NCBI GenBank assembly: GCA_964016885.1
Contig: OZ024744.1
Span: 131,192,001-131,256,000, forward strand
Direction of reading: 5' to 3'
DNA: 64,000 bases
From: Eledone cirrhosa
Taxonomy: Eukaryota
Under the pieces are notes generated by a model. The model saw only the letters and a program-made list of their open reading frames with translations, was not told the origin of the DNA and did no database searches. Made by a program: the position numbers and the translations under genes. Below are positions 1 through 61,616 of the stretch, in pieces (position 1 is the first letter of the stretch; every line of letters begins with the position of its first letter).

Positions 1-56
1 ACCCCAACTTGACTTAACCCCAACTTAACTTAACCCCAACTTAACTTAACCCCAAA
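1..56 (-). repeat. Inverted satellite island, class A (truncated by window start)
   Basis: C-rich units ending in CCCCAAATTCGGGG; the downstream flank (TTATG, TAGGCCTAAC) matches the class A islands at 6406, 47695 and 54502. Confidence 0.9.
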
Positions 57-2173
57 TTCGGGGTTAAGTTATGTTGGGGTTAAGTTAAGTTAGGCCTAAC
101 TTAAGTTGGAGTTAAGTTAAGTTGGGGGTAAGTTAAGTTGGGGGTAAGTTAAGTTGGGGTTAAGTTAAGTTGGGGTTAAGTTGGGGTTAAGTTAAGTTAG
201 GGTTAAGTTAAGTTGGGGTTGAGTTAAGTTGGGGTTAAGTTAAGTGGTGGTTATGTTAAGTTGGGGTGAAGTTAACTGGGGTTAATTTAAATTGGTGTTA
301 AGTTAACTTTGTGGTTAAGTTAAGTTGGGGTTAAGTTAAGTTGGGGTTAAGTTAAGTTGGGGTTGAGTTAAGTTGGGGTTGAGTGAAGTTGGGGTTAAGT
401 TAAGTTGGGGTTAATTTAAGTTGGGGTTAAGTTAAATCGGAGTTAAGTTAAGTTGGGGTTGAGTTAAGTTGGCGTTAATTTAAGTTGGGGCTAAGTTAAG
501 TTGGGGTTAAGTTAAGTTGAGGTTAAGTTAAGTTGGGGTTGAGTTAAGTTGGGGTTGAGTTAATTTGGGGTTAAGTTAAGTTGGGGTTAAGTTAAGTTGG
601 GTTTAAGTTAAGTTGGGGTTAAATTAAGTTGGGGTTAAATTAAGTTGGGGTTAAGTTAAGTTGGGGGTAAGATAAGTTGGGAGCAAGTTAAGTTGGGGTT
701 AAGTTAAGTTGGGGTTAAATTAAGTTGGGGTTAAGTTAAGTTGGGGTTATATTAAGTTGGGGTTAAGTTAAGTTGGGGTTAAGTTAAGTTGGGGTTCAGT
801 TAAGTTGCGGTTAAGTTAAGTTGGGGTTAAGTTAAGTTGGGGTTAAGTTAAGTTGGGGTCAAGTTAAGTTGGGGTTATGTTAAGTTGGGGTTTAGTTAAG
901 TTGGTGTTCATTTAAGTTGGGGTTAAGTTAAGTTTGGGTTAAGTTGGGGTTAAATTAAGTTGGGGTTAAGTTAAGTTGGGGTTACGTTAAGTTGGGGTTA
1001 AGTTAAGTTGGGGTTAAGTTAAGTTGGGGTTAATTTAAGTTGGGGTTAAGTTAAGTTGCGGGTAATTTAAGTTGGGGTTAAGTTAAGTTGGGGTTAAGTT
1101 AAGTTGGGGTTAAGTTAAGTTGGGGTTAAGGTAAGTTGGGGTTAAGTTAAATTGGGGCTAAGTTAAGTTGGGGCTGAGTTAAGTTGGGGTTAAGTTAAGT
1201 TGGGGTTAAGTTAAGTTGGGGTTAAGTTAAGTTGGGGTTAAGTTAAGTTGGGGTTGAGTTAAGTTGGGGTTAAGTTAAGTAGGGGTAAGTTAAGTTGGGG
1301 TTCAGTTAAGTTGGGGTTAAGTTAAGTTGGGGTTAAGTTAAGTTGGGGTTAAGTTAAGTCGGGGTTAAGTTAAGTCGGGGTTAAGTTAAGTTAGGGTTAA
1401 GTTAAGTTGGAGTTAAGTTAAGTTGGGGTTGAGTTAAGTTGGGGTTGAGTTAAATTGGGGTTGAGTTAAGTTGGGGTTGAGTTAAGTTGGTGTTGAGTTA
1501 AGTTGGGGTTAAATTGAGTTGGGGTTAAATTAAGTTGGGGTTAAGTAAATTTGGGGGTAAGTTAAGTTGGGGGCAAGTTAAGTTGGGGCTAATTTAAGTT
1601 GGGGTTAAATTAAGTTGGGGTTACGTTAAGTTGGTGTTAAGTTAAGTTGGGGTTAATTTAAGTTGGGGTTAATTAAGTTAGGGTTAAGTTAAGTTGGGGT
1701 TAAGTTAAGTTGGGGTTAATTTAAGTTGGGGTTGAGTTAAGTTAGGGTTAAGTTAAGTTGGGGTTATATTAAGTTGGGGTTAAGTTAAGTTGGGGTTAAG
1801 TTAAGTTGGGGTTCAGTTAAGTTGCGGTTAAGTTAAGTTGGGGTTAAGTTAAGTTGGGGTTAAGTTAAGTTGGGGTTAAGTTAAGTTGGAGTCAAGTTAA
1901 GTTGGGGTTAAGTTAAGTTGGGGTTAAGTTAAGTTGGTTAGTTAAGTTGAGTTTAAGTTAAGTTGGGGTTAATTTAAGTTGGGGTTAAGTTAAGTTGGGG
2001 TTAAGTTAAGTTGGGGTTAAGTTAAGTTGGGGTTAAGTTAAGTTGGGGTTCAGTTAAGTTGGGGTTAAGTCAAGTTGGGGTTAATTTGGGGTTAAATTAA
2101 TTTGGGGTTAAGTTAAGTTGTGGTTAAGTTAAGTTGGGGTTATGTTAAGTTGGGGTTAAGTTAAGTTGTGGTT

Positions 2174-2534
2174 AACCCCAACTTCACTCAACCCCACCTT
2201 AACTCAACCCCAACTTAACTTAAGCCCAACTTCACTCAACCCCAACTTAACTTAACCCCAACTTCACTCAACCCCAACTTAAATCAACCCCAACTTAACA
2301 TAACCCCAACTTAACTTAACCCTAACTTAACTTAACCCCGACTTAACTTAACTTCGAATTAACTTAACACCAACTTAACTTAACCCCAACTTAACTTAAC
2401 CCCAACTTAACTTAACCACAAATTAACTTAACCCCAACTTAACTCACACCCAACTTAACTTACCCCCAACTTAACTTAACCCCAACTTGACTTAACCCCA
2501 AATTAACTTAACCCCAACTTAACTTAACCCCAAA
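2174..2534 (-). repeat. Inverted satellite island, class B (about 361 bp)
   Basis: Starts at GTGGTTAACCCC, contains CCCCACCTT and ACTTCGAATT, ends in CCCCAAATTCGGGG. Confidence 0.95.
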
Positions 2535-3126
2535 TTCGGGGTTAAGTTAAGTTGGGGTTAAGTTAAGTTAGGCTTAACTTAAGTTGGGGTTAAGTTAAGT
2601 TGGGGGTAAGTTAAGTTCTGGGTAAGTTAAGTTGGGGTTAAGTTAAGTTGGGGTTAAGTTGGGGTTAAGTTAAGTTAGGGTTAAGTTAAGTTGGGGTTGA
2701 GTTAAGTTGGGGTTAAGTTAAGTTAGGGTTAATTTAAGTTGGGGCTAAGTTAAGTTGGGGCTGAGTTAAGTTGAGGTTAATTAAGTTGGGGTTAAGTTAA
2801 GTTGGGGATAAGTTAAGTTGGGGTTAAGTTAAGTTGGGGTTTATTTAAGTTGGGGTTAATTTAAGTTGGGGTTCAGTTAAGTTGGGGTTAAGTTAAGTTG
2901 GGGTTAAGTTAAGTTGGGGTTAAGTTAAGTTGGTGTTAAGTTAAGTTGGGTTTAAGTTAAGTTGGGGTTAAGTTAAGTTGGGGTCAAGTTAAGTTGGGGT
3001 TAAGTTAAGTTGGTTAGTTAAGTTGAGTTTAAGTTAAGTTGGGGTTAATTTATGTTGGGGTTAAGTTAAGTTGGGGTTAAGTTAAGTTGGGGTTAAGTTA
3101 AGTTGGGGTTAAGTTAAGTTGGGGTT

Positions 3127-3327
3127 AACCCCAACTTAACTTAACCCCAACTTCACTCAACCCCAACGTAACTCAACCCCAACTTAACTTAACCCCAACT
3201 TCACTCAACCCCAACTTAACTTAACCCCAACTTCACTCAACCCCAACTTAAGTCAACCCCAACTTAACTTAACCCCAACTTGACTTAACCCCAACTTAAC
3301 TTAGCACCAACTTAACTTAAGCCCAAA
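3127..3327 (-). repeat. Inverted satellite island, class D (about 201 bp)
   Basis: Starts at GGGGTTAACCCC, contains CAACGTAAC and TAGCACCAAC, ends in GCCCAAAGCCGGGG. Confidence 0.95.
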
Positions 3328-5024
3328 GCCGGGGTTAAGTTAAGTTGGCGTTAAGTTAAGTTAGGCTTAACTTAAGTTGGGGTTCAGTTAAGTTGGGGGT
3401 AAGTTAAGTTGGGGGTAAGTTAAGTTGGGGTTAAGTTAAGTTGCGTTTAAGTTGGGGTTAAGTTAAGTTAGGGTTAAGTTAAGTTGGGGTTAAGTTAAGT
3501 TGGGGTTAATTTAAATTGGGGTTAAGTTAACTTTGTGGTTAAGTTAAGTTGGGGTTAAGTTAAGTTGGGGTTAAGTTGGGGTTAATTTAAGTTGGGGCTA
3601 AGTTAATTTGTGGTTAAGTTAAGTTGGGGTTAAGTTAAGTTGGGGTTAAGTTAAGTTGGGGTTGAGTTAAGTTGGGGTTGAGTTAATTTGGGGTTAAATT
3701 AAGTTGGGGTTAAGTTAAGTTGGGGGTAAGTTAAGTTGGGGCTAAGTTAAGTTGGGGTTAAATTAAGTTGGGGTTACGTTAAGTTGGTGTTAAGTTAAGT
3801 TGGGGTTAATTTAAGTTGGGGTTAATTAAGTTGGGGTTAAGTTAAGTTGGGGTTAAGTTAAGTTGGGGTTTATTTAAGTTGGGGTTAAGTTAAGTTGGGG
3901 TTCAGTTAAGTTGGGGTTAAGTTAAGTTGGGGTTAAGATGGGGTTAAATTAAGTTGGGGTTAAGTTAAGTTGGGGTTAAGTTAAGTCGGGGTTAAGTTAA
4001 GGTAGGGTTCAGTTAAGTTGGGGTTAAGTTAAGTTGGGGTTGAGTTAAGTTGGGGTTGAGTTAAATTGGTGTTGAGTTAAGTTGGGGTTAAGTTAAGTTG
4101 GGGTTAAGTTAAGTTGCAGTTAAGTTAAGTTGAGGTTAAGTTAAGGTGCGGTTAAGTTAAGCTGGGGCTAAGTTAAGTTGGGGCTAAGTTAAGTTGGGGC
4201 TAAGTTACGTTGGGGTTAGGTTAAGTTGGGGTTAAGTTAAGTCGGGGTTAAGTTAAGTTGGCGTTAAGTTAAGTTGGGGTTAATTTAAGTTGGGGTTAGG
4301 TTAAGTTGGGGTTAATTTAAGTTGGGGTTAAGTTAAGTTGCGGGTAATTTAAGTTGGGGTTAAGTTAAGTTGGGGTTAAGTTAAGTTGGGGTTAAGTTAA
4401 GTTGGGGTTGAGTTAAGTTGGGGTTAAGTTAAGTTGGGGTTAAGTTAAGTTGGGGTTCAGTTAAGTTGGGGTTAAGTTGGGGTTAAATTAATTTGGGGTT
4501 AAGTTAAGTTGGGGTTTAGTTTAGTTGGGGTTAAATTAAGTTGGGGTTAATTTAAGTTGGGGTTAAGTTAAGTTGCGGGTAATTTAAGTTGGGGTTAAGT
4601 TAAGTTGGGGTTAAGTTAAGTTGGGGTTAAGTTAAGTTGGGGTTAAGTTAAGTTGGGGGTAAGTTAAGTTGGGGGTAAGTTAAGTTGGGGTTAAGTTAAG
4701 TTGGGGTTAAGTTAAGTTAGGGTTAAGTTAAGTTGGGGTTGAGTTAAGTTGGGGTTAAGTTAAGTTGGGGTTATGTTAAGTTGGGGTTAAGTTAAGTTGG
4801 TTCGTTAAGTTGAGTTTAAGTTAAGTGGGGTTAATTTAAGTTGGGGTTAAGTTAAGTTGGGGTTAAGTTAAGTTGGGGTTAAGTTAAGTTGGGGTTAAGT
4901 TAAGTTGGGGTTCAGTTAAGTTGGGGTTAAGTCAAGTTGGGGTTAAGTTAAGTTGGGGTTATGTTAAGTTGGGGTTAAGTTAAGTTGGGGTTAAGTTAAT
5001 TTGTGGTTAAGTTAAGTTGTGGTT

Positions 5025-5417
5025 AACCCCAACTTCACTCAACCCCACCTTAACTCAACCCCAACTTAACTTAAGCCCAACTTCACTCAACCCCAACTTA
5101 ACTTAACCCCAACTTCACTCAACCCCAACTTAACTCAACCCCAACTTAACTTAACCCCAACTTAACTTAACCCTAACTTAACTTAACCCCAACTTAACTT
5201 AACTTCGACTTAACTTAACCCCAACTTAACTTAACCCCAACTTAACTTAACCCCAACTTAACTTAACCACAAATTAACTTAACCCCAACTTAAATTAACC
5301 CCAACTTAAATTAACCCCAACTTAACTTAACCCCAACTTAACTTAACCCCAACTTAAATTAACCCCAACTTGACTTAACCCCAAATTAACTTAACCCCAA
5401 CTTAACTTAACCCCAAA
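5025..5417 (-). repeat. Inverted satellite island, class C (about 393 bp)
   Basis: Starts at GTGGTTAACCCC, contains ACTTCGACTT, ends in CCCCAAATTCGGGG. Confidence 0.95.
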
Positions 5418-6405
5418 TTCGGGGTTAAGTTAAGTTGGGGTTAAATTAAGTTAGGCTTAACTTAAGTTGGGGTTAAGTTAATTTGGGGTTAAGTTCGGGT
5501 TAAGTTAAGTTAGGGTTAAGTTAAGTTGGGGTTGAGTTAAGTTGGGGTTAAGTTAAGTTGGGGTTAAGTTAAGTTGGGGTCAAGTTAAGTTGGGGTTAAA
5601 ATTAAGTTGGGGTTAAATCAAGTTGGGGTTAAGTTAAAGTGGGGTTAATTTAGTTGGGGTTAAGTTAAGTTGGGGCTAAGTTAAGTTGGGGCTAAGTTAA
5701 GTTGGGACTAAGTTAAGTTGGGGTTAAGTTAAGTTGGGGTTAAGTTAAGTTGGGGTTAATTTAAGTTGGGATTGAGTTAAGTTGGGGTTAAGGTAAGTTG
5801 GGGTTATATTAAGTTGAGGTTAAGTTAAGTTGGGGTTAAGTTAAGTTGGGGTTCAGTTAAGTTGCGGTTAAGTTAAGTTGGGGTTAAGTTAAGTTGGGGT
5901 TAATTTAAGTTGGGGTTAAGTTAAGTTGGGGTCAAGTTAAGTTGGGGTTAAGTTAAGTTGGGGTTAAATTAAGTTGGGGTTAATTTAAGTTGGGGTTAAT
6001 TTAAGCTGGGGTTAAGTTAAGTTGGGGATAATTTAAGTTGGGGATAAGTTAAGTTGGGGTTAAGTTAAGTTGGGTTTAAGTTAAGTTGGGGTTAAGTTAA
6101 GTTGCGGTTAAGTTAAGTTGGTTAGTTAAGTTGAGTTTAAGTTAAGTTGGGGTTAATTTAAGTTGGGGTTAAGTTACGTTGGGGTTAAGTTAAGTTGGGG
6201 CTAAGTTAAGTTGGGGTTCAGTTAAGTTGGGGTTAAATCAATTTGGGGTTAAGTTGGGGTTAAATTAATTTGGGGTTAAGTTAAGTTGGGGTTAAGTTAA
6301 GTTGGGGTTAAGTTAAGTTGGGGTTAAGTTAAGTTGGGGTTAAGTTAAGTTGGAGTTAAGTTAAGTTTGGGTTGAGTTAAGTTGGGGTTGAGTTAAATTG
6401 GGGTT

Positions 6406-6894
6406 AACTCCAACTTAAGTTAACCCTAACTTAACTTAACCCCAACTTCACTCAACCCCAACTTAACTTAACCCCAACTTCACTCAACCCCAACTTAACT
6501 CAACCCCAACCTAACTTAACCCCAACTTCACTCAACCCCAACTTATCTTAACCCCAACTTCACTCAACCCCAACTTAACTCAACCCCAACTTAACTTAAC
6601 CCCAACTTAACTTAACCCTAACTTAACTTAACCCCGACTTAACTTAACCTCGACTTAACTTAACCCCAACTTAATTTAACCCCAACTTAACTTAACCCCA
6701 ACTTAACTTAACCACAAATTAACTTAACCCCAACTTCAATTAACCCCAACTTAACTTAACCCCAACTTAACTTAACCCCAACTTAACTTAACCCCAACTT
6801 AACTCACACCCAACTTACCTTACCCCCAACTTAACTTAACCCCAACTTGACTTAACCCCAACTTAACTTAACCCCAACTTAACTTAACCCCAAA
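6406..6894 (-). repeat. Inverted satellite island, class A (about 489 bp)
   Basis: Starts at GGGGTTAACTCC, contains ACTTATCTT, ACCTCGAC and TTACCTTACCCCC, ends in CCCCAAATTCGGGG. Confidence 0.95.
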
Positions 6895-9043
6895 TTCGGG
6901 GTTAAGTTATGTTGGGGTTAAGTTAAGTTAGGCCTAACTTAAGTTGGAGTTAAGTTAAGTTGGGGGTAAGTTAAGTTGGGGGTAAGTTAAGTTGGGGTTA
7001 AGTTAAGTTGGGGTTAAGTTGGGGTTAAGTTAAGTTAGGGTTAAGTTAAGTTGGGGTTGAGTTAAGTTGGGGTTAAGTTAAGTGGTGGTTATGTTAAGTT
7101 GGGGTGAAGTTAACTGGGGTTAATTTAAATTGGTGTTAAGTTAACTTTGTGGTTAAGTTAAGTTGGGGTTAAGTTAAGTTGGGGTTAAGTTAAGTTGGGG
7201 TTGAGTTAAGTTGGGGTTGAGTGAAGTTGGGGTTAAGTTAAGTTGGGGTTAATTTAAGTTGGGGTTAAGTTAAATCGGAGTTAAGTTAAGTTGGGGTTGA
7301 GTTAAGTTGGCGTTAATTTAAGTTGGGGCTAAGTTAAGTTGGGGTTAAGTTAAGTTGAGGTTAAGTTAAGTTGGGGTTGAGTTAAGTTGGGGTTGAGTTA
7401 ATTTGGGGTTAAGTTAAGTTGGGGTTAAGTTAAGTTGGGTTTAAGTTAAGTTGGGGTTAAATTAAGTTGGGGTTAAATTAAGTTGGGGTTAAGTTAAGTT
7501 GGGGGTAAGATAAGTTGGGAGCAAGTTAAGTTGGGGTTAAGTTAAGTTGGGGTTAAATTAAGTTGGGGTTAAGTTAAGTTGGGGTTATATTAAGTTGGGG
7601 TTAAGTTAAGTTGGGGTTAAGTTAAGTTGGGGTTCAGTTAAGTTGCGGTTAAGTTAAGTTGGGGTTAAGTTAAGTTGGGGTTAAGTTAAGTTGGGGTCAA
7701 GTTAAGTTGGGGTTATGTTAAGTTGGGGTTTAGTTAAGTTGGTGTTCATTTAAGTTGGGGTTAAGTTAAGTTTGGGTTAAGTTGGGGTTAAATTAAGTTG
7801 GGGTTAAGTTAAGTTGGGGTTAAGTTAAGTTGGGGTTAAGTTAAGTTGGGGTTAAGTTAAGTTGGGGTTAATTTAAGTTGGGGTTAAGTTAAGTTGCGGG
7901 TAATTTAAGTTGGGGTTAAGTTAAGTTGGGGTTAAGTTAAGTTGGGGTTAAGTTAAGTTGGGGTTAAGGTAAGTTGGGGTTAAGTTAAATTGGGGCTAAG
8001 TTAAGTTGGGGCTGAGTTAAGTTGGGGTTAAGTTAAGTTGGGGTTAAGTTAAGTTGGGGTTAAGTTAAGTTGGGGTTAAGTTAAGTTGGGGTTGAGTTAA
8101 GTTGGGGTTAAGTTAAGTAGGGGTAAGTTAAGTTGGGGTTCAGTTAAGTTGGGGTTAAGTTAAGTTGGGGTTAAGTTAAGTTGGGGTTAAGTTAAGTCGG
8201 GGTTAAGTTAAGTCGGGGTTAAGTTAAGTTAGGGTTAAGTTAAGTTGGAGTTAAGTTAAGTTGGGGTTGAGTTAAGTTGGGGTTGAGTTAAATTGGGGTT
8301 GAGTTAAGTTGGGGTTGAGTTAAGTTGGTGTTGAGTTAAGTTGGGGTTAAATTGAGTTGGGGTTAAATTAAGTTGGGGTTAAGTAAATTTGGGGGTAAGT
8401 TAAGTTGGGGGCAAGTTAAGTTGGGGCTAATTTAAGTTGGGGTTAAATTAAGTTGGGGTTACGTTAAGTTGGTGTTAAGTTAAGTTGGGGTTAATTTAAG
8501 TTGGGGTTAATTAAGTTAGGGTTAAGTTTAGTTGGGGTTAAGTTAAGTTGGGGTTAATTTAAGTTGGGGTTGAGTTAAGTTAGGGTTAAGTTAAGTTGGG
8601 GTTATATTAAGTTGGGGTTAAGTTAAGTTGGGGTTAAGTTAAGTTGGGGTTCAGTTAAGTTGCGGTTAAGTTAAGTTGGGGTTAAGTTAAGTTGGGGTTA
8701 AGTTAAGTTGGGGTTAAGTTAAGTTGGAGTCAAGTTAAGTTGGGGTTAAGTTAAGTTGGGGTTAAGTTAAGTTGGTTAGTTAAGTTGAGTTTAAGTTAAG
8801 TTGGGGTTAATTTAAGTTGGGGTTAAGTTAAGTTGGGGTTAAGTTAAGTTGGGGTTAAGTTAAGTTGGGGTTAAGTTAAGTTGGGGTTCAGTTAAGTTGG
8901 GGTTAAGTCAAGTTGGGGTTAATTTGGGGTTAAATTAATTTGGGGTTAAGTTAAGTTGGGGTTAAGTTAAGTTGGGGTTATGTTAAGTTGGGGTTAAGTT
9001 AAGTTGGGTTTAAGTTAATTCGTGGTTAAGTTAAGTTGTGGTT

Positions 9044-9388
9044 AACCCCAACTTCACTCAACCCCACCTTAACTCAACCCCAACTTAACTTAACCCCAAC
9101 TTCACTCAACCCCAACTTAACTTAACCCCAACTTCACTCAACCCCAACTTAAATCAACCCCAACTTAACATAACCCCAACTTAACTTAACCCTAACTTAA
9201 CTTAACCCCGACTTAACTTAACTTCGAATTAACTTAACCCCAACTTAACTTAACCCCAACTTAACTTAACCACAAATTAACTTAACCCCAACTTAACTCA
9301 CACCCAACTTAACTTACCCCCAACTTAACTTAACCCCAACTTGACTTAACCCCAAATTAACTTAACCCCAACTTAACTTAACCCCAAA
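9044..9388 (-). repeat. Inverted satellite island, class B (about 345 bp)
   Basis: Same junctions and ACTTCGAATT marker as the 2174 island; one unit shorter. Confidence 0.95.
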
Positions 9389-9981
9389 TTCGGGGTTAAG
9401 TTAAGTTGGGGTTAAGTTAAGTTAGGCTTAACTTAAGTTGGGGTTAAGTTAAGTTGGGGGTAAGTTAAGTTCTGGGTAAGTTAAGTTGGGGTTAAGTTAA
9501 GTTGGGGTTAAGTTGGGGTTAAGTTAAGTTAGGGTTAAGTTAAGTTGGGGTTGAGTTAAGTTGGGGTTAAGTTAAGTTAGGGTTAATTTAAGTTGGGGCT
9601 AAGTTAAGTTGGGGCTGAGTTAAGTTGGGGTTAAGTTAAGTTGGGGTTAAGTTAAGTTGGGGATAAGTTAAGTTGGGGTTAAGTTAAGTTGGGGTTTATT
9701 TAAGTTGGGGTTAATTTAAGTTGGGGTTCAGTTAAGTTGGGGTTAAGTTAAGTTGGGGTTAAGTTAAGTTGGGGTTAAGTTAAGTTGGTGTTAAGTTAAG
9801 TTGGGTTTAAGTTAAGTTGGGGTTAAGTTAAGTTGGGGTCAAGTTAAGTTGGGGTTAAGTTAAGTTGGTTAGTTAAGTTGAGTTTAAGTTAAGTTGGGGT
9901 TAATTTATGTTGGGGTTAAGTTAAGTTGGGGTTAAGTTAAGTTGGGGTTAAGTTAAGTTGGGGTTAAGTTAAGTTGGGGTT

Positions 9982-10182
9982 AACCCCAACTTAACTTAAC
10001 CCCAACTTCACTCAACCCCAACGTAACTCAACCCCAACTTAACTTAACCCCAACTTCACTCAACCCCAACTTAACTTAACCCCAACTTCACTCAACCCCA
10101 ACTTAAGTCAACCCCAACTTAACTTAACCCCAACTTGACTTAACCCCAACTTAACTTAGCACCAACTTAACTTAAGCCCAAA
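9982..10182 (-). repeat. Inverted satellite island, class D (about 201 bp)
   Basis: CAACGTAAC and TAGCACCAAC markers; ends in AAAGCCGGGG. Confidence 0.95.
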
Positions 10183-13100: not shown

Positions 13101-13301
13101 GTTAAGTTGGGGTTAATTTAAGTTGGGGTTAAGTTAAGTTGGGGTTCAGTTAAGTTGGGGTTAAGTCAAGTTGGGGTTAAGTTGGGGTTAAATTAAGTTG
13201 GGGTTAAGTTAAGTTGGGGTCAAGTTAAGTTAGGGTTAAGTTAAGTTGGGGTTAAGTTAAGTTGGGGTTAAGTTAATTTGTGGTTAAGTTAAGTTGGGGT
13301 T

Positions 13302-51286: not shown

Positions 51287-51487
51287 AACCCCAACTTAAC
51301 TTAACCCCAACTTCACTCAACCCCAACGTAACTCAACCCCAACTTAACTTAACCCCAACTTCACTCAACCCCAACTTAACTTAACACCAACTTCACTCAA
51401 CCCCAACTTAAGTCAACCCCAACTTAACTTAACCCCAACTTGACTTAACCCCAACTTAACTTAGCACCAACTTAACTTAAGCCCAAA
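51287..51487 (-). repeat. Inverted satellite island, class D (about 201 bp)
   Basis: CAACGTAAC and TAGCACCAAC markers; ends in AAAGCCGGGG. Confidence 0.95.
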
Positions 51488-53120
51488 GCCGGGGTTAAGT
51501 TAAGTTGGCGTTAAGTTAAGTTAGGCTTAACTTAAGTTGGGGTTCAGTTAAGTTGGGGGTAAGTTAAGTTGGGGGTAAGTTAAGTTGGGGTTAAGTTAAG
51601 TTGCGTTTAAGTTGGGGTTAAGTTAAGTTAGGGTTAAGTTAAGTTGGGGTTAAGTTAAGTTGGGGTTAATTTAAATTGGGGTTAAGTTAACTTTGTGGTT
51701 AAGTTAAGTTGGGGTTAAGTTAAGTTGGGGTTAAGTTGGGGTTAATTTAAGTTGGGGCTAAGTTAATTTGTGGTTAAGTTAAGTTGGGGTTAAGTTAAGT
51801 TGGGGTTAAGTTAAGTTGGGGGTAAGTTAAGTTGGGGCTAAGTTAAGTTGGGGTTAAATTAAGTTGGGGTTACGTTAAGTTGGTGTTAAGTTAAGTTGGG
51901 GTTAATTTAAGTTGGGGTTAATTAAGTTGGGGTTAAGTTAAGTTGGGGTTAAGTTAAGTTGGGGTTTATTTAAGTTGGGGTTAAGTTAAGTTGGGGTTCA
52001 GTTAAGTTGGGGTTAAGTTAAGTTGGGGTTAAGATGGGGTTAAATTAAGTTGGGGTTAAGTTAAGTTGGGGTTAAGTTAAGTCGGGGTTAAGTTAAGGTA
52101 GGGTTCAGTTAAGTTGGGGTTAAGTTAAGTTGGGGTTGAGTTAAGTTGGGGTTGAGTTAAATTGGTGTTGAGTTAAGTTGGGGTTAAGTTAAGTTGGGGT
52201 TAAGTTAAGTTGCAGTTAAGTTAAGTTGAGGTTAAGTTAAGGTGCGGTTAAGTTAAGCTGGGGCTAAGTTAAGTTGGGGCTAAGTTAAGTTGGGGCTAAG
52301 TTACGTTGGGGTTAGGTTAAGTTGGGGTTAAGTTAAGTCGGGGTTAAGTTAAGTTGGCGTTAAGTTAAGTTGGGGTTAATTTAAGTTGGGGTTAGGTTAA
52401 GTTGGGGTTAATTTAAGTTGGGGTTAAGTTAAGTTGCGGGTAATTTAAGTTGGGGTTAAGTTAAGTTGGGGTTAAGTTAAGTTGGGGTTAAGTTAAGTTG
52501 GGGTTGAGTTAAGTTGGGGTTAAGTTAAGTTGGGGTTAAGTTAAGTTGGGGTTCAGTTAAGTTGGGGTTAAGTTGGGGTTAAATTAATTTGGGGTTAAGT
52601 TAAGTTGGGGTTTAGTTTAGTTGGGGTTAAATTAAGTTGGGGTTAATTTAAGTTGGGGTTAAGTTAAGTTGCGGGTAATTTAAGTTGGGGTTAAGTTAAG
52701 TTGGGGTTAAGTTAAGTTGGGGTTAAGTTAAGTTGGGGTTAAGTTAAGTTGGGGGTAAGTTAAGTTGGGGGTAAGTTAAGTTGGGGTTAAGTTAAGTTGG
52801 GGTTAAGTTAAGTTAGGGTTAAGTTAAGTTGGGGTTGAGTTAAGTTGGGGTTAAGTTAAGTTGGGGTTATGTTAAGTTGGGGTTAAGTTAAGTTGGTTCG
52901 TTAAGTTGAGTTTAAGTTAAGTGGGGTTAATTTAAGTTGGGGTTAAGTTAAGTTGGGGTTAAGTTAAGTTGGGGTTAAGTTAAGTTGGGGTTAAGTTAAG
53001 TTGGGGTTCAGTTAAGTTGGGGTTAAGTCAAGTTGGGGTTAAGTTAAGTTGGGGTTATGTTAAGTTGGGGTTAAGTTAAGTTGGGGTTAAGTTAATTTGT
53101 GGTTAAGTTAAGTTGTGGTT

Positions 53121-53513
53121 AACCCCAACTTCACTCAACCCCACCTTAACTCAACCCCAACTTAACTTAAGCCCAACTTCACTCAACCCCAACTTAACTT
53201 AACCCCAACTTCACTCAACCCCAACTTAACTCAACCCCAACTTAACTTAACCCCAACTTAACTTAACCCTAACTTAACCTAACCCCAACTTAACTTAACT
53301 TCGACTTAACTTAACCCCAACTTAACTTAACCCCAACTTAACTTAACCCCAACTTAACTTAACCACAAATTAACTTAACCCCAACTTAAATTAACCCCAA
53401 CTTAAATTAACCCCAACTTAACTTAACCCCAACTTAACTTAACCCCAACTTAAATTAACCCCAACTTGACTTAACCCCAAATTAACTTAACCCCAACTTA
53501 ACTTAACCCCAAA
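53121..53513 (-). repeat. Inverted satellite island, class C (about 393 bp)
   Basis: ACTTCGACTT marker; same junctions as the 5025 island. Confidence 0.95.
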
Positions 53514-54501
53514 TTCGGGGTTAAGTTAAGTTGGGGTTAAATTAAGTTAGGCTTAACTTAAGTTGGGGTTAAGTTAATTTGGGGTTAAGTTCGGGTTAAG
53601 TTAAGTTAGGGTTAAGTTAAGTTGGGGTTGAGTTAAGTTGGGGTTAAGTTAAGTTGGGGTTAAGTTAAGTTGGGGTCAAGTTAAGTTGGGGTTAAAATTA
53701 AGTTGGGGTTAAATCAAGTTGGGGTTAAGTTAAAGTGGGGTTAATTTAGTTGGGGTTAAGTTAAGTTGGGGCTAAGTTAAGTTGGGGCTAAGTTAAGTTG
53801 GGACTAAGTTAAGTTGGGGTTAAGTTAAGTTGGGGTTAAGTTAAGTTGGGGTTAATTTAAGTTGGGATTGAGTTAAGTTGGGGTTAAGTTAAGTTGGGGT
53901 TATATTAAGTTGAGGTTAAGTTAAGTTGGGGTTAAGTTAAGTTGGGGTTCAGTTAAGTTGCGGTTAAGTTAAGTTGGGGTTAAGTTAAGTTGGGGTTAAG
54001 TTAAGTTGGGGTTAAGTTAAGTTGGGGTCAAGTTAAGTTGGGGTTAAGTTAAGTTGGGGTTAAATTAAGTTGGGGTTAATTTAAGTTGGGGTTAATTTAA
54101 GCTGGGGTTAAGTTAAGTTGGGGATAATTTAAGTTGGGGATAAGTTAAGTTGGGGTTAAGTTAAGTTGGGTTTAAGTTAAGTTGGGGTTAAGTTAAGTTG
54201 CGGTTAAGTTAAGTTGGTTAGTTAAGTTGAGTTTAAGTTAAGTTGGGGTTAATTTAAGTTGGGGTTAAGTTACGTTGGGGTTAAGTTAAGTTGGGGCTAA
54301 GTTAAGTTGGGGTTCAGTTAAGTTGGGGTTAAATCAATTTGGGGTTAAGTTGGGGTTAAATTAATTTGGGGTTAAGTTAAGTTGGGGTTAAGTTAAGTTG
54401 GGGTTAAGTTAAGTTGGGGTTAAGTTAAGTTGGGGTTAAGTTAAGTTGGAGTTAAGTTAAGTTTGGGTTGAGTTAAGTTGGGGTTGATTTAAATTGGGGT
54501 T

Positions 54502-54990
54502 AACTCCAACTTAAGTTAACCCCAACTTAACTTAACCCCAACTTCACTCAACCCCAACTTAACTTAACCCCAACTTCACTCAATCCCAACTTAACTCAAC
54601 CCCAACCTAACTTAACCCCAACTTCACTCAACCCCAACTTATCTTAACCCCAACTTCACTCAACCCCAACTTAACTCAACCCCAACTTAACTTAACCCCA
54701 ACTTAACTTAACCCTAACTTAACTTAACCCCGACTTAACTTAACCTCGACTTAACTTAACCCCAACTTAATTTAACCCCAACTTAACTTAACCCCAACTT
54801 AACTTAACCACAAATTAACTTAACCCCAACTTCAATTAACCCCAACTTAACTTAACCCCAACTTAACTTAACCCCAACTTAACTTAACCCCAACTTAACT
54901 CACACCCAACTTACCTTACCCCCAACTTAACTTAACCCCAACTTGACTTAACCCCAACTTAACTTAACCCCAACTTAACTTAACCCCAAA
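54502..54990 (-). repeat. Inverted satellite island, class A (about 489 bp)
   Basis: GTTAACTCC start, ACCTCGAC marker, AAATTCGGGG end. Confidence 0.95.
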
Positions 54991-57139
54991 TTCGGGGTTA
55001 AGTTATGTTGGGGTTAAGTTAAGTTAGGCCTAACTTAAGTTGGAGTTAAGTTAAGTTGGGGGTAAGTTAAGTTGGGGGTAAGTTAAGTTGGGGTTAAGTT
55101 AAGTTGGGGTTAAGTTGGGGTTAAGTTAAGTTAGGGTTAAGTTAAGTTGGGGTTGAGTTAAGTTGGGGTTAAGTTAAGTGGTGGTTATGTTAAGTTGGGG
55201 TGAAGTTAACTGGGGTTAATTTAAATTGGTGTTAAGTTAACTTTGTGGTTAAGTTAAGTTGGGGTTAAGTTAAGTTGGGGTTAAGTTAAGTTGGGGTTGA
55301 GTTAAGTTGGGGTTGAGTGAAGTTGGGGTTAAGTTAAGTTGGGGTTAATTTAAGTTGGGGTTAAGTTAAATCGGAGTTAAGTTAAGTTGGGGTTGAGTTA
55401 AGTTGGCGTTAATTTAAGTTGGGGCTAAGTTAAGTTGGGGTTAAGTTAAGTTGAGGTTAAGTTAAGTTGGGGTTGAGTTAAGTTGGGGTTGAGTTAATTT
55501 GGGGTTAAGTTAAGTTGGGGTTAAGTTAAGTTGGGTTTAAGTTAAGTTGGGGTTAAATTAAGTTGGGGTTAAATTAAGTTGGGGTTAAGTTAAGTTGGGG
55601 GTAAGATAAGTTGGGAGCAAGTTAAGTTGGGGTTAAGTTAAGTTGGGGTTAAATTAAGTTGGGGTTAAGTTAAGTTGGGGTTATATTAAGTTGGGGTTAA
55701 GTTAAGTTGGGGTTAAGTTAAGTTGGGGTTCAGTTAAGTTGCGGTTAAGTTAAGTTGGGGTTAAGTTAAGTTGGGGTTAAGTTAAGTTGGGGTCAAGTTA
55801 AGTTGGGGTTATGTTAAGTTGGGGTTTAGTTAAGTTGGTGTTCATTTAAGTTGGGGTTAAGTTAAGTTTGGGTTAAGTTGGGGTTAAATTAAGTTGGGGT
55901 TAAGTTAAGTTGGGGTTAAGTTAAGTTGGGGTTAAGTTAAGTTGGGGTTAAGTTAAGTTGGGGTTAATTTAAGTTGGGGTTAAGTTAAGTTGCGGGTAAT
56001 TTAAGTTGGGGTTAAGTTAAGTTGGGGTTAAGTTAAGTTGGGGTTAAGTTAAGTTGGGGTTAAGGTAAGTTGGGGTTAAGTTAAATTGGGGCTAAGTTAA
56101 GTTGGGGCTGAGTTAAGTTGGGGTTAAGTTAAGTTGGGGTTAAGTTAAGTTGGGGTTAAGTTAAGTTGGGGTTAAGTTAAGTTGGGGTTGAGTTAAGTTG
56201 GGGTTAAGTTAAGTAGGGGTAAGTTAAGTTGGGGTTCAGTTAAGTTGGGGTTAAGTTAAGTTGGGGTTAAGTTAAGTTGGGGTTAAGTTAAGTCGGGGTT
56301 AAGTTAAGTCGGGGTTAAGTTAAGTTAGGGTTAAGTTAAGTTGGAGTTAAGTTAAGTTGGGGTTGAGTTAAGTTGGGGTTGAGTTAAATTGGGGTTGAGT
56401 TAAGTTGGGGTTGAGTTAAGTTGGTGTTGAGTTAAGTTGGGGTTAAATTGAGTTGGGGTTAAATTAAGTTGGGGTTAAGTAAATTTGGGGGTAAGTTAAG
56501 TTGGGGGCAAGTTAAGTTGGGGCTAATTTAAGTTGGGGTTAAATTAAGTTGGGGTTACGTTAAGTTGGTGTTAAGTTAAGTTGGGGTTAATTTAAGTTGG
56601 GGTTAATTAAGTTAGGGTTAAGTTAAGTTGGGGTTAAGTTAAGTTGGGGTTAATTTAAGTTGGGGTTGAGTTAAGTTAGGGTTAAGTTAAGTTGGGGTTA
56701 TATTAAGTTGGGGTTAAGTTAAGTTGGGGTTAAGTTAAGTTGGGGTTCAGTTAAGTTGCGGTTAAGTTAAGTTGGGGTTAAGTTAAGTTGGGGTTAAGTT
56801 AAGTTGGGGTTAAGTTAAGTTGGAGTCAAGTTAAGTCGGGGTTAAGTTAAGTTGGGGTTAAGTTAAGTTGGTTAGTTAAGTTGAGTTTAAGTTAAGTTGG
56901 GGTTAATTTAAGTTGGGGTTAAGTTAAGTTGGGGTTAAGTTAAGTTGGGGTTAAGTTAAGTTGGGGTTAAGTTAAGTTGGGGTTCAGTTAAGTTGGGGTT
57001 AAGTCAAGTTGGGGTTAATTTGGGGTTAAATTAATTTGGGGTTAAGTTAAGTTGGGGTTAAGTTAAGTTGGGGTTATGTTAAGTTGGGGTTAAGTTAAGT
57101 TGGGTTTAAGTTAATTCGTGGTTAAGTTAAGTTGTGGTT

Positions 57140-57500
57140 AACCCCAACTTCACTCAACCCCACCTTAACTCAACCCCAACTTAACTTAACCCCAACTTCA
57201 CTCAACCCCAACTTAACTTAACCCCAACTTCACTCAACCCCAACTTAAATCAACCCCAACTTAACATAACCCCAACTTAACTTAACCCTAACTTAACTTA
57301 ACCCCGACTTAACTTAACTTCGAATTAACTTAACCCCAACTTAACTTAACCCCAACTTAACTTAACCCCAACTTAACTTAACCACAAATTAACTTAACCC
57401 CAACTTAACTCACACCCAACTTAACTTACCCCCAACTTAACTTAACCCCAACTTGACTTAACCCCAAATTAACTTAACCCCAACTTAACTTAACCCCAAA
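57140..57500 (-). repeat. Inverted satellite island, class B (about 361 bp)
   Basis: ACTTCGAATT marker; same junctions as the 2174 island. Confidence 0.95.
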
Positions 57501-58093
57501 TTCGGGGTTAAGTTAAGTTGGGGTTAAGTTAAGTTAGGCTTAACTTAAGTTGGGGTTAAGTTAAGTTGGGGGTAAGTTAAGTTCTGGGTAAGTTAAGTTG
57601 GGGTTAAGTTAAGTTGGGGTTAAGTTGGGGTTAAGTTAAGTTAGGGTTAAGTTAAGTTGGGGTTGAGTTAAGTTGGGGTTAAGTTAAGTTAGGGTTAATT
57701 TAAGTTGGGGCTAAGTTAAGTTGGGGCTGAGTTAAGTTGGGGTTAAGTTAAGTTGGGGTTAAGTTAAGTTGGGGATAAGTTAAGTTGGGGTTAAGTTAAG
57801 TTGGGGTTTATTTAAGTTGGGGTTAATTTAAGTTGGGGTTCAGTTAAGTTGGGGTTAAGTTAAGTTGGGGTTAAGTTAAGTTGGGGTTAAGTTAAGTTGG
57901 TGTTAAGTTAAGTTGGGTTTAAGTTAAGTTGGGGTTAAGTTAAGTTGGGGTCAAGTTAAGTTGGGGTTAAGTTAAGTTGGTTAGTTAAGTTGAGTTTAAG
58001 TTAAGTTGGGGTTAATTTATGTTGGGGTTAAGTTAAGTTGGGGTTAAGTTAAGTTGGGGTTAAGTTAAGTTGGGGTTAAGTTAAGTTGGGGTT

Positions 58094-58294
58094 AACCCCA
58101 ACTTAACTTAACCCCAACGTAACTCAACCCCAACGTAACTCAACCCCAACTTAACTTAACCCCAACTTCACTCAACCCCAACTTAACTTAACCCCAACTT
58201 CACTCAACCCCAACTTAAGTCAACCCCAACTTAACTTAACCCCAACTTGACTTAACCCCAACTTAACTTAGCACCAACTTAACTTAAGCCCAAA
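58094..58294 (-). repeat. Inverted satellite island, class D (about 201 bp)
   Basis: Class D markers, with the CAACGTAACTC unit present twice in tandem. Confidence 0.95.
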
Positions 58295-58554
58295 GCCGGG
58301 GTTAAGTTAAGTTGGCGTTAAGTTAAGTTAGGCTTAACTTAAGTTGGGTTTCAGTTAAGTTGGGGGTAAGTTAAGTTGGGGGTAAGTTAAGTTGGGGTTC
58401 AGTTAAGTTGGGGTTAAGTCAAGTTGGGGTTAAGTTGGGGTTAAATTAAGTTGGGGTTAAGTTAAGTTGGGGTCAAGTTAAGTTAGGGTTAAGTTAAGTT
58501 GGGGTTAAGTTAAGTTGGGGTTAAGTTAATTTGTGGTTAAGTTAAGTTGGGGTT

Positions 58555-58755
58555 AACCCCAACTTAACTTAACCCCAACTTCACTCAAACCCAACTTAAC
58601 TCAACCCCAACTTAACTTAACCCCAGCTTCACTCAACCCCAACTTAACTTAACCCCAACTTCACTCAACCCCAACTTAACTCCACCGCAACTTAACTTAA
58701 CCCCAACTTGACTTAGCCCCAACTTAACTTAACCCCAACTTAACTTAACCCAAAA
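58555..58755 (-). repeat. Inverted satellite island, class E (about 201 bp)
   Basis: Class E markers plus CTCCACCGCAAC, as in the 40166 island. Confidence 0.95.
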
Positions 58756-61472
58756 GTCGGGGTTAAGTTAAGTTGGGGGTAAGTTAAGTTGGGATTAAGT
58801 TAAGTTGCGGTTAAGTTGGGGTTAAGTTAAGTTGGGGTTAAGTTAAGTCGGGGTAAGTTAAGTCGGGGTTAAGTTAAGTTAGGGTTAAGTTAAGTTGGGG
58901 TTAAGTTAAAGTTGGGGTTGAGTTAAGTTGCGGTTGAGTTAAATTGGGGTTGAGTTAAGTTGGGGTTGAGTGAAGTTGGTGTTGAGTTAAGTTGGGGTTA
59001 AGTTAAGTTGGGGTTAAGTTATGTTGCGGTTAAGTTAAGTTGAGTTTAAGTTAAGTTGGGGTTAACTTAAGTGTGGGTTAAGTTCAGTTGGGGTTAAGTT
59101 AAGTTGGGGTTGAGTTAAGTTGGGGTTGAGTTAAATTGGGGTTGAGTTAAGTTGGGGTTGAGTTAAGTTGGTGTTGAATTAAGTTGGGGTTAGGTTAAGT
59201 TGGGGTTAAGTTAAGTTGCGGTTAAGTTAAGTTGAGGTTAAGTTAAGTTGGGGTTAACTTAAGTGTGGATTAAGTTAAGTTGGGGTTAAGTTAAGTTGGG
59301 GTTAAGTTAAGTTGGTGTTAAGTTAAGTTGGGGCTGAGTTAAGTTGGGGCTGAGTTAAGTTGGGGCTGAGTTAAGTTGGGGTTCAGTTAAGTTGGGGTTG
59401 AGTTAAGTTGCGGTTAAGTTAAGTTGGGGTTAAGTTAAGTTGGGGTTATGTTAAGTTGGGGTTAAGGTAGGTTGGGGTTAAGTTAATTTGGGGTTGAGTT
59501 AAGTTGGGGTTGAGTTAAATTGGGGTTGAGTTAAGTTGGGGTTGAGTTAAGTTGGTGTTGAGTTAAGTTGGGGTTAAGTTAAGTTGGGGTTAAGTTAAGT
59601 TGCGATTAAGTTAAGTTGAGGTTAAGTTAAGTTGGGGTTAACTTAAGTGTGGGTTAAGTTAAGTTAAGGTTAAGTTAAGTTGGGGTTAAGTTAAGTTGGG
59701 GTTAAGTTAAGTTGGGGTTAAGTTAAGTTGGTGTTAAGTTAAGTTGGGGCTGAGTTAAGTTGGGGCTGAGTTAAGTTGGGGCTGAGTTAAGTTGGGGTTC
59801 AGTTAAGTTGGGGTTGAGTTAAGTTGCGGTTAAGTTAAGTTGGGGTTAAGTTAAGTTGGGGTTATGTTAAGTTGGGGTTTAGTTAAGTTGGGGTTCATTT
59901 AAGTTGGGGTTAAGTTAAGTTTAGGTTAAGTTGGGGTTAAATTAATTTGGGGTTAAGTTAAGTTGGGGTTAAGTTAAGTTGGGGTTAATTTAAGTTGGGG
60001 TTAATTTAAGTTGGGGTTAAGTTAAGTTGCGGGTAATTTAAGTTGGGGTTAAGTTAAGTTGGGGTTAAGTTAAGTTGGGGTTAAGTTAAGTTGGGGTTAA
60101 GTTAAGTTTGGGTTAAGTTAAGTTGGGGCTAATTTAAGTTGGGGCTGAGTTAAGTTGGGGTTAAGTTAAGTTGGGGTTAAGTTAATTTGGGGTTAAGTTG
60201 GGGTTAAGTTAAGTTGCGGTTTATTTAAGTTGGGGTTAAGTTAAGTTGGGGTTCAGTTAAGTTGGGGTTCAGTTAAGTTGGGGTTAAGTTAAGTTGGGGT
60301 TAAGTTAAGTTGGTTAGTTAAGTTGAGGTTAAGTTAAGTTGGGGTTAAGTTAAGTTGGGGTTAAGTTAAGTTGGGGTTAATTTAAGTTGGGGCTAAGTTA
60401 AGTTGGGGCTAAGTTAAGTTGGAGCTAAGTTAAGTTGGGTTTAAGTTAAGGTGGGGTTAAGTTAAGTTGAGGTTAAGTTAAGTTGGGGTTAAGTTAAGTT
60501 GGTGTTAAGTTAAGTTGGGGCTGAGTTAAGTTGGGGCTGAGTTAAGTTGGGGCTGAGTTAAGTTGGGGTTGAGTTAAGTTGGGGTTGAGTTACGTTGCGG
60601 TTAAGTTAAGTTGGGGTTAAGTTAAGTTGGGGTTATGTTAAGTTGGGGTTAAGTTAAGTTGGGGTTGAGTTAAGTTGGGGTTGAGTTAAATTGGGGTTGA
60701 GTTAAGTTGGGGTTGAGTTAAGTTGGTGTTGAGTTAAGTTGGGATTAAGTTAAGTTGGGGTTAAGTTAAGTTGCGGTTAAGTTAAGGTGAGGTTAAGTTA
60801 AGTTGGGGTTAACTTAAGTTGGGGTTAAGTTAAGTTGGGGTTAAGTTAAGTTGGGGTTAAGTTAAGTTGGTGTTAAGTTAAGTTGGGGCTGAGTTAAGTT
60901 GGGGCTGAGTTAAGTTGGGGCTGAGTTAAGTTGGGGTTCAGTTAAGTTGGGGTTGAGTTAAGTTGCGGTTAATTTAAGTTGGGGTTAAGTTAAGTTGGGG
61001 CTCATTTAAGTTGGGGTTAAGTTAAGTTGGGGTTAAGTTGGGGTTAAATTAATTTGGGGTTAAGTTAAGTTGGGGTTAAGTTAAGTTGGGGTTAAGTTAA
61101 GTTGGGGTTAATTTAAGTTGGGGTTAATTTAAGTTGCGGGTAATTTAAGTTGGGGTTAAGTTAAGTTGGGGTTAAGTTAAGTTGGGGTTAAGTTAAGTTG
61201 GGGTTAAGTTAAGTTGGGTTTAAGTTAAGTTGGGGCTGAGTTAAGTTGGGGTTAATTTAAGTTGGGGTTAAGTTAAGTTGGGGTTAAGTTAAGTTGGGGT
61301 TTATTTAAGTTGGGGTTAAGTTAAGTTGGGGTTCAGTTAAGTTGGGGTTCAGTTAAGTTGGGGTTAAGTTAAGTTGGGGTTAAGATGGGGTTAAATTAAG
61401 TTGGGGTTAAGTTAAGTTGGGGTTAAGTTAAGTTGGGGTTAAGTTAAGTTGGGGTTAAGTTAAGTTGGGGTT

Positions 61473-61616
61473 AACCCCAACTTAACTTAACCGCAACTTC
61501 ACTCAACCCCAACGTAACTCAGCCCCAACTTAACTTAACCCCAACTTCACTCAACCCCAACTTCCAACTTGACTTAACCCCAACTTAACTTAGCCCCAAC
61601 TTAACTTAAGCCCAAA
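61473..61616 (-). repeat. Inverted satellite island, class F (about 144 bp)
   Basis: Matches the 43084 island at an offset of 18389 bp. Confidence 0.95.

What the first reader, a model, noticed from the sequence alone, without database searches (positions are those of the whole stretch)
1..61616. Satellite with a built-in, recurrent inverted island: 29 strand switches sharing the same pair of breakpoints
Seen: the G-strand array is interrupted 29 times by a short reverse-complement block (together about 7.6 kb, about 12%). Every complete block opens with GGTTAAC(C/T)CC and every block closes with CC(C)AAA(T/G)(T/C)CGGGG. The blocks share internal variants (AACTTCACTCAACCCC near the start, AACTTGACTT near the end). 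Known: satellite arrays are mostly head-to-tail, and inversions in them are usually sporadic with individual breakpoints. Inference: one ancestral inversion became part of the amplified unit and has been kept at about one per 2.2 kb, although long inverted repeats are normally unstable. This could be passive hitch-hiking, or the island could be a functional or amplification-driving element such as a cruciform, a fork-stalling or recombination site, or a hairpin-RNA source. This is the best candidate for an undescribed system in the window.
Basis: partly seen in the sequence, partly recalled or inferred. Interest (0 to 1): 0.75.

Follow-up and report, generated by a model that had tools for sequence, protein, structure and literature searches.

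The report
Copied fold-back scar in satellite DNA
The 29 back-to-front patches in this 16-letter repeat array are real copies of one old flip, likely a replication slip at the repeat's own self-complementary TTAA word, that was likely carried along as a passenger to about a thousand copies, with no sign so far that it has a job.

Summary
Observation confirmed. The window is a 16-bp satellite (GGGGTTAAGTTAAGTT) with 29 reverse islands (28 complete, 141-486 bp, about 7.5 kb) that share both junctions and an internal variant skeleton. They belong to one family (A): 966 closing junctions in the assembly, none listed before C28:124.6 Mb. Function or drive is not supported. The island is absent from 37 of 70 sampled 10-kb stretches of the C28 array and from 11 of 11 on C3. 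Its density, patchiness and spacing match those of neutral marker variants, it is no better conserved than its flanks, and its length and loop sequence vary freely. Three further independent island families (B, C, D) point to the likely origin. All four families open at a TTAA of the monomer and three close at one. B and C are inverted duplicates of their own upstream flank, the signature of a fold-back template switch. Two larger inversions end inside family-A islands. Closest known case: conserved inversion sites in Tribolium satellites. This scan reached the same passenger reading on neighbouring DNA of this array. Verdict: real, mechanistically tidy, mostly ordinary.

The parts
1..64000 (+). 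16-bp satellite array, consensus GGGGTTAAGTTAAGTT, arranged in kb-scale higher-order duplications; part of an array of about 8.3 Mb (G000:C28 about 127.0-135.3 Mb)
   Evidence: TRF period 16, about 4,035 copies; 77% of the window lies in ungapped duplicated blocks of 900 bp or more, the 25 longest 99.2-100% identical; extent from samples
1..63 (-). island 1, cut by the window start; closing junction CCCCAAATTCGGGG
2170..2541 (-). island 2, long ATTC clade (358 bp); opens GTGGTT|AACCCC
3123..3334 (-). island 3, short AGCC clade (198 bp); 27-bp perfect arms at the opening palindrome GGGGTT|AACCCC
5021..5424 (-). island 4, long ATTC clade (390 bp)
6402..6901 (-). island 5, long ATTC clade (486 bp); opens GGGGTT|AACTCC
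9040..9395 (-). island 6, long ATTC clade (342 bp)
9978..10189 (-). island 7, AGCC clade (198 bp)
13298..13509 (-). island 8, AGTC clade (198 bp); its closing junction was laid on reads
16802..17013 (-). island 9, AGTC clade (198 bp)
19675..19861 (-). island 10, internally deleted AGTC clade (173 bp)
21642..21853 (-). island 11, AGTC clade (198 bp)
24560..24746 (-). island 12, deleted AGTC clade (173 bp)
26136..26347 (-). island 13, AGCC clade (198 bp)
30294..30489 (-). island 14, AGCC clade (182 bp)
33172..33383 (-). island 15, AGTC clade (198 bp)
37076..37287 (-). island 16, AGTC clade (198 bp), closing variant CCCAAAAGTCGGGG
38612..38823 (-). island 17, AGTC clade (198 bp)
40162..40373 (-). 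island 18, AGTC clade (198 bp), closing variant CCCAAAAGTCGGGG
43080..43234 (-). island 19, deleted AGTC clade (141 bp)
46310..46713 (-). island 20, long ATTC clade (390 bp)
47691..48190 (-). island 21, long ATTC clade (486 bp)
50329..50700 (-). island 22, long ATTC clade (358 bp)
51283..51494 (-). island 23, AGCC clade (198 bp)
53117..53520 (-). island 24, long ATTC clade (390 bp)
54498..54997 (-). island 25, long ATTC clade (486 bp)
57136..57507 (-). island 26, long ATTC clade (358 bp)
58090..58301 (-). island 27, AGCC clade (198 bp)
58551..58762 (-). island 28, AGTC clade (198 bp), closing variant CCCAAAAGTCGGGG; only 461 bp after island 27
61469..61623 (-). island 29, deleted AGTC clade (141 bp)
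2563..2578 (+). example of the co-inherited flank marker monomer AGGCTTAACTTAAGTT, two monomers after the closing junction (21 copies in the window); it also occurs without an island in island-free layers

Best explanation
The islands are copies of one old short inversion that likely arose by a replication template switch at the self-complementary TTAA word of the 16-bp monomer and was then likely multiplied passively inside the array's kilobase higher-order repeats. Shown: single ancestry of all window islands, their position inside near-identical kb duplications, their absence from large parts of the same satellite, and behaviour like neutral marker variants. Shown in sister families B and C: the island is an inverted duplicate of the sequence just upstream, joined at TTAA. 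Inferred: the nascent strand re-primed on the opposite template through the TTAA(G/C)TTAA quasi-palindrome, copied back 4-30 monomers and switched forward again. Family A arose this way by analogy only, since its source copy is no longer recognisable. Once present, an island offers ready-made inverted homology and occasionally serves as a breakpoint for larger inversions (2 cases seen). That is a by-product, not a selected job.
For: Same junctions and variant skeleton in 28 of 28 complete islands. A tree of 85 distinct islands groups them by array layer. 23 of 28 opening junctions lie in duplicated blocks of 900 bp or more. Family A is found in 33 of 70 C28 samples and 0 of 11 C3 samples, at a mean 1.44 per 10 kb with CV 1.31. 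Seven comparable marker variants give means 1.3-3.5, presence in 28-54 of 70 and CV 0.96-1.42. Spacing CV in the window is 0.45, against 0.48-1.11 for the eight other markers present there. In 42 duplicate pairs, islands differ at 81 of 11,130 sites and flanks at 52 of 10,896. Island length spans 126-521 bp and the closing loop has 9 sequence variants among 113 copies. The island's downstream flank string occurs without an island 11 times at 128.9-129.72 Mb. Independent families B (L034, L055, L057), C (L107, L108, L110, on C18) and D (L118) all open at TTAA and close at TTAA, D's close being less clear. Only 20 of 256 phase pairs give such 4-nt microhomology. The B island's best forward match is its own upstream flank (score 30.8 vs 16.5-18.8 shuffled), and a 64-mer of the C island matches its upstream flank with 0 mismatches. 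The spans between the TTAA pairs used are 57 or 73 bp (B) and 36 bp (C), counted by hand, near the 40-80 bp preferred in yeast fork template switches (PMC10766183, section read). Larger inversions end in islands in L069 and L127.
Against: Family A's own source copy was not found. Outside the L069 rearrangement, best forward matches score 17-24 against 15-26 for shuffled controls, and only 1 of 151 left-arm variants is mirrored in the island, so its fold-back origin rests on analogy. Its closing junction (CCCCAAAGTCGGGG) is not at TTAA. Family A persists in three k-mer-distinct layers and reached at least 966 copies, while B, C and D were seen in only 3, 3 and 2 copies. Drift allows this but a mild drive is not excluded. 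Its spacing is the most regular of the nine markers compared, if only slightly. The pair test is pseudo-replicated, and pairs were chosen on distal flanks, which favours flank similarity. Sampling was not uniform, and genome searches list only the first 100 places, so contigs after C28 were not seen. No chromatin, break-mapping or RNA data were available.
Confidence: 0.8

Rival explanations
1. Amplification driver: the island's hairpin or cruciform stalls or breaks forks, and repair by break-induced replication preferentially expands island-bearing units.
For: Single strands across an island fold strongly (-199.8 kcal/mol for 601 nt, z -28). The opening junction has no spacer, and such palindromes are a known instability risk (PMC7999016, passages). 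The family has at least 966 copies in three layers. Two larger inversions end in islands. Islands change slightly faster than flanks (substitutions p=0.019, indels p=0.019, biased test).
Against: Island-free layers are as large and more self-duplicated (0.76 vs 0.65, p=0.009) and slightly closer to consensus (confounded by shorter forward segments and AT-rich inserts). The same lineage contains island-free stretches (L062, L063, L080, L040, L081, L082). The C3 array of about 0.6 Mb has no island in any sample. Neutral markers reached the same density.
Confidence: 0.1
2. Selected structural element, as proposed for Tribolium macro-dyads: the junction loops form non-B DNA or bind a protein that organises (peri)centromeric chromatin.
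For: Conserved, amplified inversion sites exist in Tribolium satellites and were hypothesised there to be functional (PMC13081366, PMC12581902; passages). The opening hexamers are the same in 87 of 113 copies.
Against: No excess conservation. The loop has nine variants and length varies four-fold. The island is absent from about half of the array samples and from arrays on other chromosomes. The Tribolium pattern covers all chromosomes with balanced multi-kb arms, whereas here about 12% is inverted in one part of one chromosome. No Rfam family matches.
Confidence: 0.06
3. Assembly or library artefact (fold-back chimeric reads).
For: The stretch is highly repetitive, with 200-N gaps nearby (L075, L120, L135). 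No bridging read from an independent individual was shown.
Against: Islands carry heritable variants that sort into a tree by array layer and do not mirror their flanks, which chimeras would. Both junction types are in short-read contigs at depths of 251 and 320.
Confidence: 0.02
4. The 29 islands are independent recurrent inversions that converge on the same breakpoints because TTAA is a hotspot.
For: Independent events do converge on TTAA (families B, C, D).
Against: Those independent events use other TTAA combinations and lack the family-A skeleton. All window islands share a non-TTAA closing junction and ordered internal variants.
Confidence: 0.02

Closest known systems
Conserved inversion sites in Tribolium satellite macro-dyad symmetries (T. 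madens INV_1a, INV_1b, INV_2, PMC13081366; T. freemani TfSat01/TfSat03, PMC12581902; passages read)
   Same: Thousands of copies of a few strand-switch junctions with near-identical sequence inside satellite arrays; variable repeat number between fixed junctions ('cassette'); interspersion with a second satellite (here an AT-rich 36-37-bp repeat at 129.1-129.6 and 132.0-132.8 Mb).
   Different: There the arms are balanced, kilobases to 75 kb long, and occur on all chromosomes. Here the inverted part is 0.13-0.5 kb, out-and-back, on a 16-bp monomer, and seen in part of one chromosome only. Neutral-marker comparisons here argue against function.
Strand switches in human HSat3B5 (chr9) and beta-satellite arrays (bioRxiv 10.1101/2021.07.12.452052; passages)
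   Same: Over 200 inversion breakpoints inside large satellite arrays; layered expansion of sub-arrays.
   Different: The passages seen do not say whether those breakpoints are copies of one event; supplements were not seen.
Leading-to-lagging strand template switch at short inverted repeats (ODIRA, PMC10766183, abstract and one results section; PMC10766186, passages)
   Same: Fold-back junctions at pre-existing 2-14-bp inverted repeats with tens of bases between them, giving an inverted duplicate of adjacent sequence (families B, C).
   Different: ODIRA gives origin-dependent inverted triplications of many kb. Here the events are 70-500 bp and B and C lack the third forward copy.

Membership tests
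Satellite array with an amplified, conserved inversion site (Tribolium-type) | Many strand switches that share the same junction sequence | tested here: met
   28 of 28 opens and 29 of 29 closes in the window; 966 closing junctions in the assembly
Satellite array with an amplified, conserved inversion site (Tribolium-type) | Variable number of repeats between fixed junctions | tested here: met
   126-521 bp among 113 copies
Tribolium macro-dyad symmetry (strict sense) | Multi-kb, roughly balanced direct and inverted subarrays | tested here: not met
   Inverted parts are 0.14-0.49 kb against a mean period of 2.2 kb
Tribolium macro-dyad symmetry (strict sense) | Present across the arrays of all chromosomes | tested here: not met
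   Family A in 0 of 11 C3 samples and 0 of 7 C18 samples; none listed before C28:124.6 Mb; later contigs not seen
Tribolium macro-dyad symmetry (strict sense) | (Peri)centromeric location | not testable with these tools
   The array lies 1-9.5 Mb from the contig end; no CENP-A data
Fold-back template-switch inverted duplication | Junction at a pre-existing short inverted repeat (microhomology) | tested here: met
   4 of 4 opening and 3 of 4 closing junctions at TTAA, D's close less clear; family A's close is not
Fold-back template-switch inverted duplication | Inverted segment duplicates the adjacent upstream sequence | tested here: inconclusive
   Met for families B and C; no source found for the window's family A; not seen for D
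ODIRA inverted triplication | Third, forward copy after the inverted segment | tested here: not met
   The B and C marker strings occur once forward and once reverse per sampled locus
ODIRA inverted triplication | Dependence on a replication origin and fork direction | not testable with these tools
   No origin map
Known structured RNA | Rfam match at gathering score | tested here: not met
   0 matches in 64 kb

The most novel reading that the evidence does not exclude
The monomer is an inversion-prone unit. Its TTAA(G)TTAA quasi-palindrome makes fold-back islands again and again, and each island that gets amplified becomes a U-turn that seeds larger inversions, up to half a megabase. Satellite polarity would then be reshaped by a self-feeding cascade, and island-bearing units might even gain a mild expansion advantage through fork stalling. 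This array would be a natural test bed for whether conserved satellite inversion sites such as those in Tribolium are drivers or passengers.
Probability: 0.15. Interest if true: 0.65.

Novelty: new member of a known kind. Interest (0 to 1): 0.27.

Why it matters
Conserved inversion junctions in satellites have been read as signs of function (Tribolium papers). This array gives a within-genome control: island-free sister layers and neutral marker variants show that about a thousand near-identical junctions can arise with no detectable selection. The young families B and C show how such islands likely start. The two larger inversions that end in islands suggest how small flips grow into large ones. 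If a drive or chromatin role were shown, it would tie non-B DNA to satellite expansion directly.

Tried and rejected
(1) Source copy of family A: a monomer-level alignment of six window islands against all long runs found nothing above shuffled controls, apart from the L069 rearrangement.
(2) Palindrome perfecting or erosion at the opening junction: 1 mirrored variant against 28 expected, and mean perfect arm 16 bp against 12.5 bp. All copies descend from one flank, so this is pseudo-replicated and I draw no conclusion beyond 'no erosion seen'.
(3) Idea that tail-to-tail perfect palindromes cannot survive: one search found only family-A variants, but family C has such a junction. Rejected.
(4) AGGCTTAACTTAAGTT as a remnant of the reciprocal junction: it occurs without an island in 21 of 122 satellite copies (one further hit lay in a telomere-like tract), so it is an older flank marker.
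(5) Family A's closing junction as a 14-nt centre deletion of the expected reciprocal palindrome plus one substitution: fits on paper, cannot be tested.
(6) Independent read support: RAD runs X6-X8 cover the satellite but no bridging record was listed; X4 and X5 hold small shares and showed no junction-spanning piece. No RNA holder listed.
(7) Rfam: no match.
(8) Literature: four phases of the monomer occur in 0 papers of the held library. A search for the inverted-Alu divergence data gave 0 papers. Two searches for amplified satellite inversion junctions gave only listings, which I did not read.
(9) The organism was not identified.
Full report
1. Observation. The window is one 16-bp satellite, GGGGTTAAGTTAAGTT, about 4,035 copies; about a third of monomers are canonical. 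Segmentation finds 29 reverse blocks. All 28 complete ones open at GGTT|AAC[CT]CC. Lengths are 141-486 bp, about 7.5 kb in total, and mean spacing is 2.2 kb. A short-read contig spans an opening junction and another spans a closing junction with under 31 letters each side. Both runs are one sample that may be the assembly's source, so confirmation in another individual is still open.

2. One ancestor. Written as monomer strings, every island has the same skeleton: two to five A7G/T11G monomers near the start, one T11C monomer near the end, and the same non-canonical close. Six length and loop classes occur in the window, each with its own flank string. A tree of 85 distinct islands from the window and sampled loci (485 of 832 columns kept, many weak inner branches) groups them by array layer. 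The window mixes the short clades of the 130.25-131.1 Mb layer with the long ATTC clade of the 131.3-131.8 Mb layer. 77% of the window lies in ungapped duplications of 900 bp or more, the 25 longest being 99.2-100% identical, and 23 of 28 opening junctions fall inside them.

3. Genomic setting. The window is G000:C28:131,192,001-131,256,000 of a 3.0-Gb assembly. Sampling puts the array at about 127.0-135.3 Mb, with an outlier block at 124.6-124.7 Mb. Further arrays lie on C3 (184.77 to at least 185.37 Mb) and C18. A degenerate pattern finds 966 family-A closing junctions, the first listed at C28:124.6 Mb. Only the first 100 places are listed, and that they are sorted by contig number is my inference from the outputs, so later contigs are unseen.

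4. Passenger tests. Family A is in 33 of 70 satellite-bearing 10-kb samples of C28 and 0 of 11 of C3; sampling was denser near the window. Its mean density (1.44 per 10 kb) and patchiness (CV 1.31) lie within the range of seven marker variants (1.3-3.5; CV 0.96-1.42). Two further markers were set aside from that range, one because it also counts island-internal copies and one because it is confined to 10 samples. Spacing CV in the window is 0.45, against 0.48-1.11 for the eight other markers present there. In 42 duplicate pairs, islands differ at 0.73% of sites and flanks at 0.48%, so there is no excess conservation; the test is biased towards flank similarity and the pairs are not independent. 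Among 113 complete copies, lengths run from 126 to 521 bp and the loop has nine variants. Island-bearing samples are less self-duplicated (0.65 vs 0.76) and slightly more diverged (0.054 vs 0.051) than island-free ones, with confounders. The island's downstream flank string occurs without an island 11 times at 128.9-129.72 Mb. Against the passenger reading: the family persists in three layers that share few 48-mers, and it far outnumbers the other families seen.

5. How islands arise. Sampling and gap-pattern searches covering spacers of 1-30 bases revealed three more families. B lies at C28 129.1-129.6 Mb (3 copies seen), C on C18 at 10.13-10.19 Mb (3 copies) and D at C28 127.42 Mb (2 copies). 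The monomer has two TTAA words. A opens by joining first to first, B and D first to second, and C second to second. B, C and (less clearly) D also close at TTAA. Only 20 of 256 phase pairs give 4-nt microhomology; by hand, 7 of 8 at that rate has a probability of about 1e-7 and 6 of 8 about 5e-6, under a uniform null that ignores survival. B and C are inverted duplicates of their own upstream flank, including rare variants in order, and have no third forward copy. The TTAA pairs used span 57 or 73 bp in B and 36 bp in C. In yeast, leading-to-lagging template switches use 2-14-bp inverted repeats and prefer 40-80 bp (PMC10766183, results section read). For family A no source copy survives in the sample and the arms are not mirrored, so its origin by the same route is inferred.

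6. Consequences. A strand across an island folds strongly in silico. Perfect arms at the opening palindrome are only 3-27 bp in the window (maximum 43 in the wider sample), and the arms are about 89% identical. Risk rises with arm length and identity and falls with spacer length (PMC7999016, passages), so moderate fragility is plausible but unmeasured. Two larger inversions use islands as ends. In L069 a 2.5-kb inversion starts inside one island and ends inside another, with no new junction sequence. The reverse block of about 560 kb ends at C28:133,355,364 in an island's closing junction followed by two island monomers and ordinary array; its other end is an assembly gap.

7. Known systems. 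Tribolium madens and T. freemani satellites carry thousands of conserved inversion sites, proposed but not shown to be functional (passages). Human HSat3B5 and beta satellites have over 200 switches (passages). This finding is of that general kind but fails the strict macro-dyad definition (short unbalanced arms, part of one chromosome), and families B and C fail the ODIRA triplication test. The monomer was not found in the held library. Supplements of these papers were not read and may hold junction analyses. At least four earlier AI notes on neighbouring parts of this array reached the same passenger reading; they are not independent evidence.

8. Verdict. Real; one amplified inversion scar, most likely neutral (0.8). 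Driver 0.1, structural function 0.06, artefact 0.02, independent recurrence 0.02. New member of a known kind; interest 0.27.

Noticed in passing
L034:2058-2295, L055:1666-1887, L057:1673-1925 (C28 129.1-129.6 Mb): Independent island family B: an inverted duplicate of its own upstream flank, with both junctions at TTAA.
   Followed up: yes
L107:9115-9266, L108:2215-2366, L110:8791-8942 (C18 10.13-10.19 Mb): Independent family C on another chromosome: 144-bp island, locally perfect palindromes at both junctions, duplicate of the upstream flank.
   Followed up: yes
L118:4219-4295 and 7210-7286 (C28 127.42 Mb): Independent family D: 69-bp island in two copies 3 kb apart; no mirror of the flank seen.
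   Followed up: partly
L069:3650-6300 (C28 131.324-131.326 Mb): 2.5-kb secondary inversion whose two ends lie inside family-A island sequence and which carries a re-inverted island.
   Followed up: partly
L129, L121, L122, L126, L127 (C28 132.795-133.355 Mb): Reverse-oriented block of about 560 kb; the right end is inside an island, the left end at a 200-N gap followed by low-quality sequence.
   Followed up: partly
L128 and L075 (C28 131.97-131.987 Mb): Another reverse block of at least 17 kb ending at an N gap; left end not seen.
   Followed up: no
L018, L019, L021-L024, L055-L057 (C28 129.1-129.6 and 132.05-132.78 Mb): An AT-rich 36-37-bp complex satellite (GC about 19%) is interspersed with the 16-bp satellite through a few fixed, co-amplified junctions; in some copies it directly abuts a truncated island.
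   Followed up: partly
L086, L087, L136 (C3 184.70-184.769 Mb); L029 (C28 126.507 Mb): Degenerate (TAACCC)n telomere-like tracts. On C3 such repeats occur in all three samples across about 70 kb and abut the 16-bp array in opposite G/C polarity at a TTAA. The monomer may derive from such repeats (inference only).
   Followed up: partly
L113, L114:1-4481 (C28 124.58-124.60 Mb): A diverged 32-bp G-rich repeat, loosely similar to the 16-mer, borders an outlying 100-kb reverse-oriented block of island-bearing satellite.
   Followed up: no
window 58090-58762: Two islands of different clades only 461 bp apart, a recombinant join between two higher-order units.
   Followed up: no
L135:1700-3300 (C28 124.692 Mb): A 225-bp satellite fragment embedded in non-satellite sequence; a loose end from run X5 matches the sequence beside it.
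   Followed up: no
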